Assembly: GCA_030265395.1 (NCBI GenBank)
Contig: JARFYF010000046.1
Span: forward strand, 14,092,558-14,156,557
From: Rhina ancylostomus
Lineage: Eukaryota
Length of the DNA: 64,000 nt
Reading direction: 5' to 3'
In this document: positions 24,285 through 24,395 of the stretch, in pieces
Layout of the letters: each line of letters opens with the position of its first letter
How positions within the stretch are numbered: position 1 is the first letter of the stretch
Notes under the pieces: generated by a model
Told to the model about the DNA's origin: nothing
The model's database searches: none
Seen by the model: only the letters and a program-made list of their open reading frames with translations
Program-made: the position numbers and the translations under genes

Positions 24285-24395
24285 AAATAAAATAAACAAA
24301 AAAATGCCAGAAACATTCAGCTGCTTAGGTAGCATCTGTGGAGAGAGAAACAGTTAACGTTTCAGGTCCAAAACCCTGCATCAGAACTGAAAAAG
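24285..24395 (-). mobile_element. PLE terminal repeat copy
   Basis: Reverse complement reads cagttctgatgc...aactgtttctctctccacagatgctacc...ctgaatgtttctggcatttt. Confidence 0.75.
24351..24389 (-). ncRNA. Minimal type-I hammerhead ribozyme-like motif (A9C variant)
   Basis: Minus strand CAGUU-CUGAUGC-AGG[GUUUUGGA]CCU-GAA-ACGU-U-AACUG: perfect 5-bp stem I, 3-bp stem II, palindromic ACGU helix III, GUU cleavage triplet. Confidence 0.6.

What the first reader, a model, noticed from the sequence alone, without database searches (positions are those of the whole stretch)
24351..24389. Minimal hammerhead ribozyme fold in a Penelope-like terminal repeat, with a non-canonical CUGAUGC core
Seen: the minus strand reads CAGUU CUGAUGC AGG-GUUUUGGA-CCU GAA ACGU U AACUG, giving a perfect stem I, a short stem II, a palindromic ACGU and an NUH triplet. 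Known: PLE terminal repeats carry minimal type-I hammerheads that self-cleave as dimers through a palindromic helix III, and the canonical core is CUGANGA...GAAA. Inference: A9 is replaced by C, which could pair with G12 and should impair catalysis. The same GAUGC is present at 21640 and 31278-31285, so the family appears to have amplified with the variant core, implying either a tolerated variant or mobility without self-cleavage.
Basis: partly seen in the sequence, partly recalled or inferred. Interest (0 to 1): 0.7.

Follow-up and report, generated by a model that had tools for sequence, protein, structure and literature searches.

The report
Decayed Penelope hammerhead, C9 sister subfamily
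The flagged motif is a worn-out, likely dead self-cutting-RNA relic at the tail of a known jumping gene, whose odd letter is probably a chance change in this copy; a sister subfamily of the same element did spread with that letter fixed, which would fit lab evidence that these elements can move without cutting their RNA.

Summary
The 39-nt motif is exactly as described. It is a solo ~115-nt 3' fragment of a Penelope-like element (PLE) carrying a minimal type-I hammerhead.

By its tail alone, the flagged copy belongs to an old subfamily that has A9 in 53 of 63 copies, so its C is most likely sporadic. The copies at 21640 and 31278 belong to a different subfamily, C1, in which C9 is fixed (38 of 44). 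C9 makes up 896 of 4413 intact cores genome-wide. C1 descends from an RT + GIY-YIG coding element with a Neptune-type linker.

The family's stem II is GGGU/ACCC with a bulged A. C9-G12 pairing is predicted only where position 11.1 is U. C9 probably cripples cleavage (inferred, untested). Movement without cleavage is already shown in vitro for another PLE (PMC11167929), so C1 would be a natural example, not a surprise.

The scan noted decayed PLE hammerheads elsewhere in this genome; no note mentioned CUGAUGC.

The parts
24290..24405 (-). Solo, 5'-truncated 3' end (pseudo-LTR fragment) of a PLE, old A9 subfamily; ends approximate
   Evidence: Aligns over this span to the window copy at 2486-2604 (75%); tail model old subfamily 42.9 bits vs 22.7; tail divergence 0.15
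24351..24389 (-). Minimal type-I hammerhead fold (flagged motif)
24385..24389 (-). Stem I, 5' strand (pairs with 24351-24355)
   Evidence: the pair next to the core is U-A in 15 and C-G in 18 of 43 distinct rows
24378..24384 (-). Core C3-N9, CUGAUGC; the C at 24378 stands at position 9
   Evidence: contigs >=85% alike carry A9 at 85-86% of depth in two runs
24377..24377 (-). Extra (bulged) A between positions 9 and 10.1, typical of PLE minimal hammerheads
   Evidence: A in 57 of 63, 19 of 21, 25 of 25, 11 of 11 and 40 of 44 copies of the five subfamilies; PMC4209133 consensus CUGANGAH
24364..24376 (-). Stem-loop II; 10.1-11.1 is G-U in this copy
24356..24363 (-). GAA, palindromic ACGU, and U17; predicted cut 3' of 24356
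   Evidence: cut site inferred from hammerhead numbering
21634..21767 (+). C1-subfamily (C9) PLE 3' end; core further damaged (U4A, AUGU)
   Evidence: (C1 80.2 bits)
31197..31292 (-). C1-subfamily (C9) PLE 3' end lacking the 3' half of the hammerhead
   Evidence: (C1 67.8 bits)
2486..2617 (+). Old-subfamily copy with A9, decayed at other core positions
52307..52609 (+). GIY-YIG endonuclease remnant (52307-52396) followed by a C1 tail without a core (52549-52609)

Best explanation
The motif is the minimal hammerhead in the 3' terminal repeat of a truncated Penelope-like retroelement copy, likely inactive, and its C9 is probably a post-insertion mutation in an A9 subfamily, while a separate coding subfamily (C1, with its relative C2) spread with C9 fixed, likely as a crippled ribozyme carried as a passenger. 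Mechanism. (1) Shown: copies keep sequence on both sides of the predicted cut site, so their template was not cut there (assuming an RNA template). (2) Inferred from the PLE literature: the element's protein nicks DNA and reverse-transcribes from the RNA 3' region, usually stopping early. (3) Inferred: because cleavage is not needed for insertion, a master element that mutated A9 to C still copied itself. (4) Inferred: A9 anchors the general base G12 through a sheared pair that C supports poorly, so C9 cores cut weakly or not at all. (5) Shown: the flagged copy has no same-strand intact partner nearby for the dimer that minimal hammerheads need.
For: Subfamily assignment. The tail-only tree places the flagged copy among A9 copies and nearly all C9 copies in one group (midpoint root, 90 rows); tail models agree. 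Position 9 in copies not chosen by the core: old A53 C4 G2 T1 gap3 of 63; A2 A19 of 21; A1 A25 of 25; C1 C38 T3 A2 gap1 of 44; C2 C6 A4 T1 of 11. Among the first 100 of 182 genome matches ending as the flagged copy does: A84 G8 C5 T3 (counted by hand). Read contigs like the flagged copy carry A9 at 85% and 86% of depth. C9 is not decay genome-wide: C 896, G+T 146, of 4413. C1 is a coding lineage: of 30 loci found by endonuclease DNA alone, 19 have a readable downstream core, C in 17 (one is the query's own locus), T in 2, A in 0. About 2.5 kb of RT, linker and GIY-YIG remnants lie upstream in L274. C1 5' ends show no peak at the cut site: 4 of 66 within 2 nt. Literature: PMC11167929 (parts 1-2 of 4 read) reports that hammerhead catalytic mutants do not affect insertion in vitro; PMC8557442 (passages) reports that Naiads lacking canonical hammerheads proliferate; PMC6961537 (passages) describes the sheared pair anchoring the general base, with A strongly conserved in hammerheads.
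Against: No cleavage assay exists, and I found no paper measuring A9C in a minimal hammerhead with the extra nucleotide. C1 keeps every other core position, the palindrome and a GGGU-UUCG-ACCC hairpin, as an active variant would. A9 subfamilies show no cut-site peak either, so that test does not separate C1 from them. Evidence for selection on the core in A9 lineages is weak (0 of 11 differences; P 0.06-0.15 at the tail rate). The flagged C could come from gene conversion or template switching with a C9 copy. Three old-subfamily C9 cores turned up among the 11 matches when C was demanded, so a small C9 branch inside the old subfamily is not excluded. C2 is mixed, partly through misassignment.
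Confidence: 0.7

Rival explanations
1. C9 is a tolerated core. The A after it serves as A9 next to G10.1, the C is an insertion between G8 and A9, and C1 hammerheads still cut, perhaps with help from the element's protein.
For: CUGAUG-C-A-G10.1 keeps an A directly 5' of a G10.1-C11.1 pair (G-C in 25 of 44 C1 copies, G-U in 12). All other core positions are intact. Natural core variants and insertions with low activity exist (PMC3088659 section 8, read). The anole PLE hammerhead cuts only with protein (PMC11167929).
Against: In the published alignment of 56 representatives, position 9 is A and it is the next base that varies, although the descriptor demanded A9. PMC3088659 section 8 lists no G8-A9 insertion and reports low activity for A6C and for an insertion after A6. 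C1 stem I is cut to 3 bp. No 5'-end peak at the cut site.
Confidence: 0.15
2. One reading: the flagged copy is itself a member of a family that amplified with C9.
For: The same GAUGC occurs in two other window copies; 896 C9 cores genome-wide; 3 old-type C9 cores among the 11 matches.
Against: Tail, flank and loop length place it in the old subfamily, where C is 3 of 62 other copies; the other two window copies are C1.
Confidence: 0.08
3. The fold is kept in C1 for a non-catalytic job, such as a protein-binding site or reverse-transcription stop, so loss of A9 was neutral to that job.
For: C1 5' ends pile up at the 5' edge of the fold: 21 of 66 in -40..-28 (1.6 per nt) against 0.4 per nt just upstream and 0.6 inside. 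Stem II and the palindrome are intact.
Against: The pile-up may be a by-product of hairpin stalling or fold-back priming (30 of 66 have an inverted copy within 350 nt upstream). One core change in 11 equals the tail rate, so retention needs no selection. In the anole element the pseudo-LTR was dispensable for insertion in vitro (PMC11167929).
Confidence: 0.07

Closest known systems
Minimal type-I hammerheads of metazoan PLE terminal repeats (Cervera and de la Pena 2014, PMC4209133; main-text parts 1-2 of 4 and supplement file 2 parts 1-2 read; file 1 not searchable)
   Same: Type-I topology, extra nucleotide between 9 and 10.1, G10.1-C11.1 in most subfamilies, palindromic 15.1-16.1 in place of helix III, 3-5 bp helix I, mostly solo copies from truncated elements
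   Different: C at position 9 fixed in a subfamily; their descriptor required CUGANGA and could not have found it. No shark, skate or CUGAUGC hit in the supplement text searched.
Neptune (or Nematis) clade EN+ PLEs (Craig et al. 2021, PMC8557442; passages read)
   Same: RT then C-terminal GIY-YIG, CX4CxxC linker in 4 of 25 decayed C1 copies, pseudo-LTR with hammerhead, inverted truncated partners
   Different: Clade assigned by linker motif only, no RT tree; all copies seen are broken
Poseidon of the green anole, PAc (Frangieh et al. 2024, PMC11167929)
   Same: Uncut RNA appears to be the template; hammerhead activity dispensable for insertion
   Different: There shown with engineered C3G and G8C mutants in vitro; here a natural position-9 change in a lineage that spread in the genome, activity untested
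Natural hammerhead core variants (Perreault et al. 2011, PMC3088659; section 8 and passages read)
   Same: A single change at a normally invariant core A
   Different: The text names C3U/G8A, A6C, A6a, U13a and U15.1-A16.1, not A9C; its figures were not visible. Lunse et al. 2017 on PLE-associated small variants was not held and may bear on this.

Membership tests
PLE minimal hammerhead (min-HHR) | Core CUGANGA | tested here: not met
   C at position 9 in the flagged copy and in C1; met in subfamilies old, A2 and A1
PLE minimal hammerhead (min-HHR) | GAAA, U16.1, H17 | tested here: met
   GAAA-CG-U-U
PLE minimal hammerhead (min-HHR) | Helix I and II, with covariation | tested here: met
   One compensatory stem I pair (U-A 15, C-G 18 of 43) and 10.1-11.1 as G-U, G-C, A-U. 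Few independent events; covariation score 0.182 with 4 of 500 shuffles as high, which the tool warns is not a probability
PLE minimal hammerhead (min-HHR) | Extra nucleotide between 9 and 10.1; G10.1-C11.1 | tested here: met
   Extra A in all five subfamilies; G-C commonest in A1, A2, C1 and C2, G-U or A-U in the old subfamily
PLE minimal hammerhead (min-HHR) | Palindromic 15.1-16.1 allowing a dimer | tested here: met
   ACGU; no intact same-strand partner near the flagged copy
PLE minimal hammerhead (min-HHR) | Self-cleavage as a dimer | not testable with these tools
   Needs a bench assay
EN+ Penelope-like element | RT plus C-terminal GIY-YIG upstream of the terminal repeat | tested here: met
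   For the subfamilies, not the flagged fragment: EN remnants upstream of old, A2, A1 and C1 tails; RT-like motifs recognised from recall; Pfam GIY-YIG E 0.0015, 19.3 bits, below the 22.6 cut-off, in 1 of 6 fragments
EN+ Penelope-like element | Tandem or inverted pseudo-LTR arrangements | tested here: met
   Inverted partner in 30 of 66 C1 copies; a C9 repeat upstream of a 5'-truncated ORF in L277
Neptune clade | CX2-5CxxC linker between RT and EN | tested here: met
   CX4CxxC intact in 4 of 25 decayed C1 copies
Neptune clade | RT phylogeny groups with Neptune | not tested
   No reference sequences held
Non-LTR retrozyme | Tandem repeats of a hammerhead-bearing unit | tested here: not met
   The flagged copy is solo; no tandem array at the site

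The most novel reading that the evidence does not exclude
A coding Penelope-like lineage carries a new natural hammerhead core, CUGAUG-C-A, that still cuts because the bulged A takes over the role of A9 (or the element's protein rescues it), so hammerhead searches that demand CUGANGA miss whole active families.
Probability: 0.15. Interest if true: 0.6.

Novelty: new variant of a known kind. Interest (0 to 1): 0.3.

Why it matters
What PLE hammerheads are for is still open. If C9 is dead, subfamily C1 is a natural loss-of-function experiment: a coding element that spread widely without a working ribozyme, in line with the in vitro result for the anole element. It has at least 2615 exact tail matches, and perhaps tens of thousands of copies by rough extrapolation from 18 in 654 kb. 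If C9 is active, the hammerhead core rules need an amendment. A9 and C9 sister subfamilies differ by few bases, so the test is cheap. The flagged copy itself is ordinary decay.

Tried and rejected
Rfam scan: no hammerhead among 10 matches at E<=10; uninformative for a motif without helix III.

5'-end peak at the cut site as a genomic sign of cleavage: none in any subfamily (6 of 115, 3 of 35, 2 of 39, 0 of 22 and 1 of 65 within 2 nt; 4 of 66 with a longer C1 model). It cannot tell active from dead.

Ortholog test: a contig of a second organism spans the site with 15 differences, of which only 12 are listed, none at 24378. Its base at position 9 stays unknown. No RNA holder listed.

Selection on the core between subfamily majorities: weak.

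Full-length C1 element with both repeats: none among 10 extended loci; several upstream stretches read N.

Literature: no paper describing a CUGAUGC or A9C PLE hammerhead in searches. Lunse 2017 was not held; the bioRxiv retrozyme preprint was read in part (part 1 of 5 and passages; supplements closed).

Rows dropped: the flagged copy's own locus L005 and the tandem locus L094; copies under 25 bits or with a margin under 6 bits (521 clusters to 386 rows, duplicates included in the loss). One row was mis-stranded and redone. Tail-anchored samples are biased to low divergence, and the fixed-place sample is not strictly random.

Full report
Observation. A strict descriptor matches once in the window and in 0 of 300 shuffles. 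Rfam has no hammerhead hit, and the fold energy is unremarkable. The motif sits in a fragment of about 115 nt that has several relatives in the window. The repeat landscape looks like that of a cartilaginous fish (my recall; earlier scan notes say the same).

Genome-wide tally. A tight core pattern with any base at position 9 has 4413 matches in the 2.2-Gb genome, control 0. C accounts for 896 and G or T for 146, leaving 3371 A. C is thus about six times as common as G and T together, which decay alone does not explain: a C9 lineage exists.

Subfamilies. The copies fall into five groups: an old group with a longer loop II, two A9 groups (A2 and the youngest, A1), and two C9 groups (C1, C2). 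A tree of 90 tails, which excludes the core, puts nearly all C9 copies in one group and the flagged copy among the old A9 copies (midpoint root, no outgroup). Tail models built without the flagged copy score it 42.9 bits for old, 22.7 for A2, 19.3 for C2 and give no C1 hit. The copies at 21640 and 31278 score best for C1 (80.2 and 67.8 bits).

Position 9 by subfamily. In copies not chosen by their core, position 9 reads: old A53 C4 G2 T1 gap3 of 63 (one C is the flagged copy); A2 A19 C1 T1 of 21; A1 A25 of 25; C1 C38 T3 A2 gap1 of 44; C2 C6 A4 T1 of 11. Two independent views agree: A84 G8 C5 T3 in the first 100 of 182 genome matches ending as the flagged copy does, and A9 at 85% and 86% of the depth of similar contigs in two runs (one run may be this DNA's source). 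Non-CpG tail divergence in fixed-place samples is old 0.158 (n 39), C2 0.128 (9), C1 0.088 (18), A2 0.088 (13) and A1 0.053 (12). So C1 seems to have been active alongside A2, and an A9 lineage outlasted it.

What the element is. GIY-YIG remnants lie a few hundred bases upstream of old, A2, A1 and C1 tails. I searched the genome with the endonuclease DNA of one C1 copy (5107 candidates, 40 scored, 30 loci). Nineteen loci had a readable downstream core: C in 17 (one is the query's own locus), T in 2, A in none. Two had the core truncated and nine had no downstream hammerhead. Extended loci share up to 2.5 kb with broken RT, linker and endonuclease frames. Pfam GIY-YIG hits one of six fragments at E 0.0015, below its cut-off. 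A CX4CxxC linker survives in 4 of 25 copies, which points to Neptune or Nematis (PMC8557442, passages). L277 has a C9 repeat just upstream of a 5'-truncated ORF. No complete element was found.

Structure. PMC4209133 describes an extra nucleotide between 9 and 10.1 and a G10.1-C11.1 pair. Its alignment of 56 representatives has A9 followed by a variable base, but its descriptor demanded A9. Stem I shows one compensatory change between the old and younger groups. In the flagged copy, U at 11.1 lets the helix slip so that C9 pairs with G12 (P 0.875), a fold that would block catalysis. An intact C1 copy keeps GGGU-UUCG-ACCC with C9 unpaired, so in C1 any loss of activity would come from losing the sheared A9-G12 pair (PMC6961537, passages). 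C1's stem I is reduced to 3 bp, though short helices I are common in published examples.

How it most likely works. Copies retain sequence on both sides of the predicted cut, and 5' ends show no peak there in any subfamily. This matches PMC11167929, where hammerhead mutants did not affect insertion and unprocessed RNA was the main template. A master with C9 would therefore still copy itself. I put the combined reading at 0.7: sporadic C in a dead solo copy, and a crippled core carried by C1. The main rival (0.15) is that the bulged A replaces A9 and C1 still cuts. C1's otherwise intact core is compatible with it, and nothing here measures activity. Evidence for selection on the core is weak in either direction. 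The ortholog test failed to resolve the base.

Novelty and verdict. The flagged copy is ordinary. The fixed-C9 coding subfamily is a variant I did not find in print in nine searches, but Lunse et al. 2017 could not be read. Earlier scan notes describe decayed PLE hammerheads in this genome and an A6C variant in another; none held the word CUGAUGC, and a sequence look-up returned nothing. Interest 0.3; 0.6 if the C9 core proves active.

Noticed in passing
L094:4280-4445 (minus; G000:C1 about 120.934 Mb): Four to five head-to-tail 35-nt copies of the C1 (C9) hammerhead unit in front of a normal C1 tail, with an inverted copy upstream. A natural tandem in which a C9 dimer could form; shorter than the retrozyme units reported in the preprint (51 bp and up).
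   Followed up: partly
C1 copies in loci L001-L243: 5' ends pile up at the 5' edge of the hammerhead fold: 21 of 66 in -40..-28 from the cut site, 1.6 per nt against 0.4 just upstream; 30 of 66 have an inverted copy within 350 nt.
   Followed up: partly
old subfamily, e.g. L064, L082, L089, L091: A branch with A10.1-U11.1 (13 of 63) beside the commoner G-U (36 of 63), in place of the usual G-C.
   Followed up: partly
window 59766-59942 and 23010-23167: Inverted pairs of PLE tails, the usual fold-back insertion form.
   Followed up: no
window 479-939: Decayed PLE 3' UTR with short internal repeats and a worn hammerhead at about 834-870.
   Followed up: no
L282:5500-6350: C1 element whose RT part is inverted relative to the endonuclease part.
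   Followed up: no
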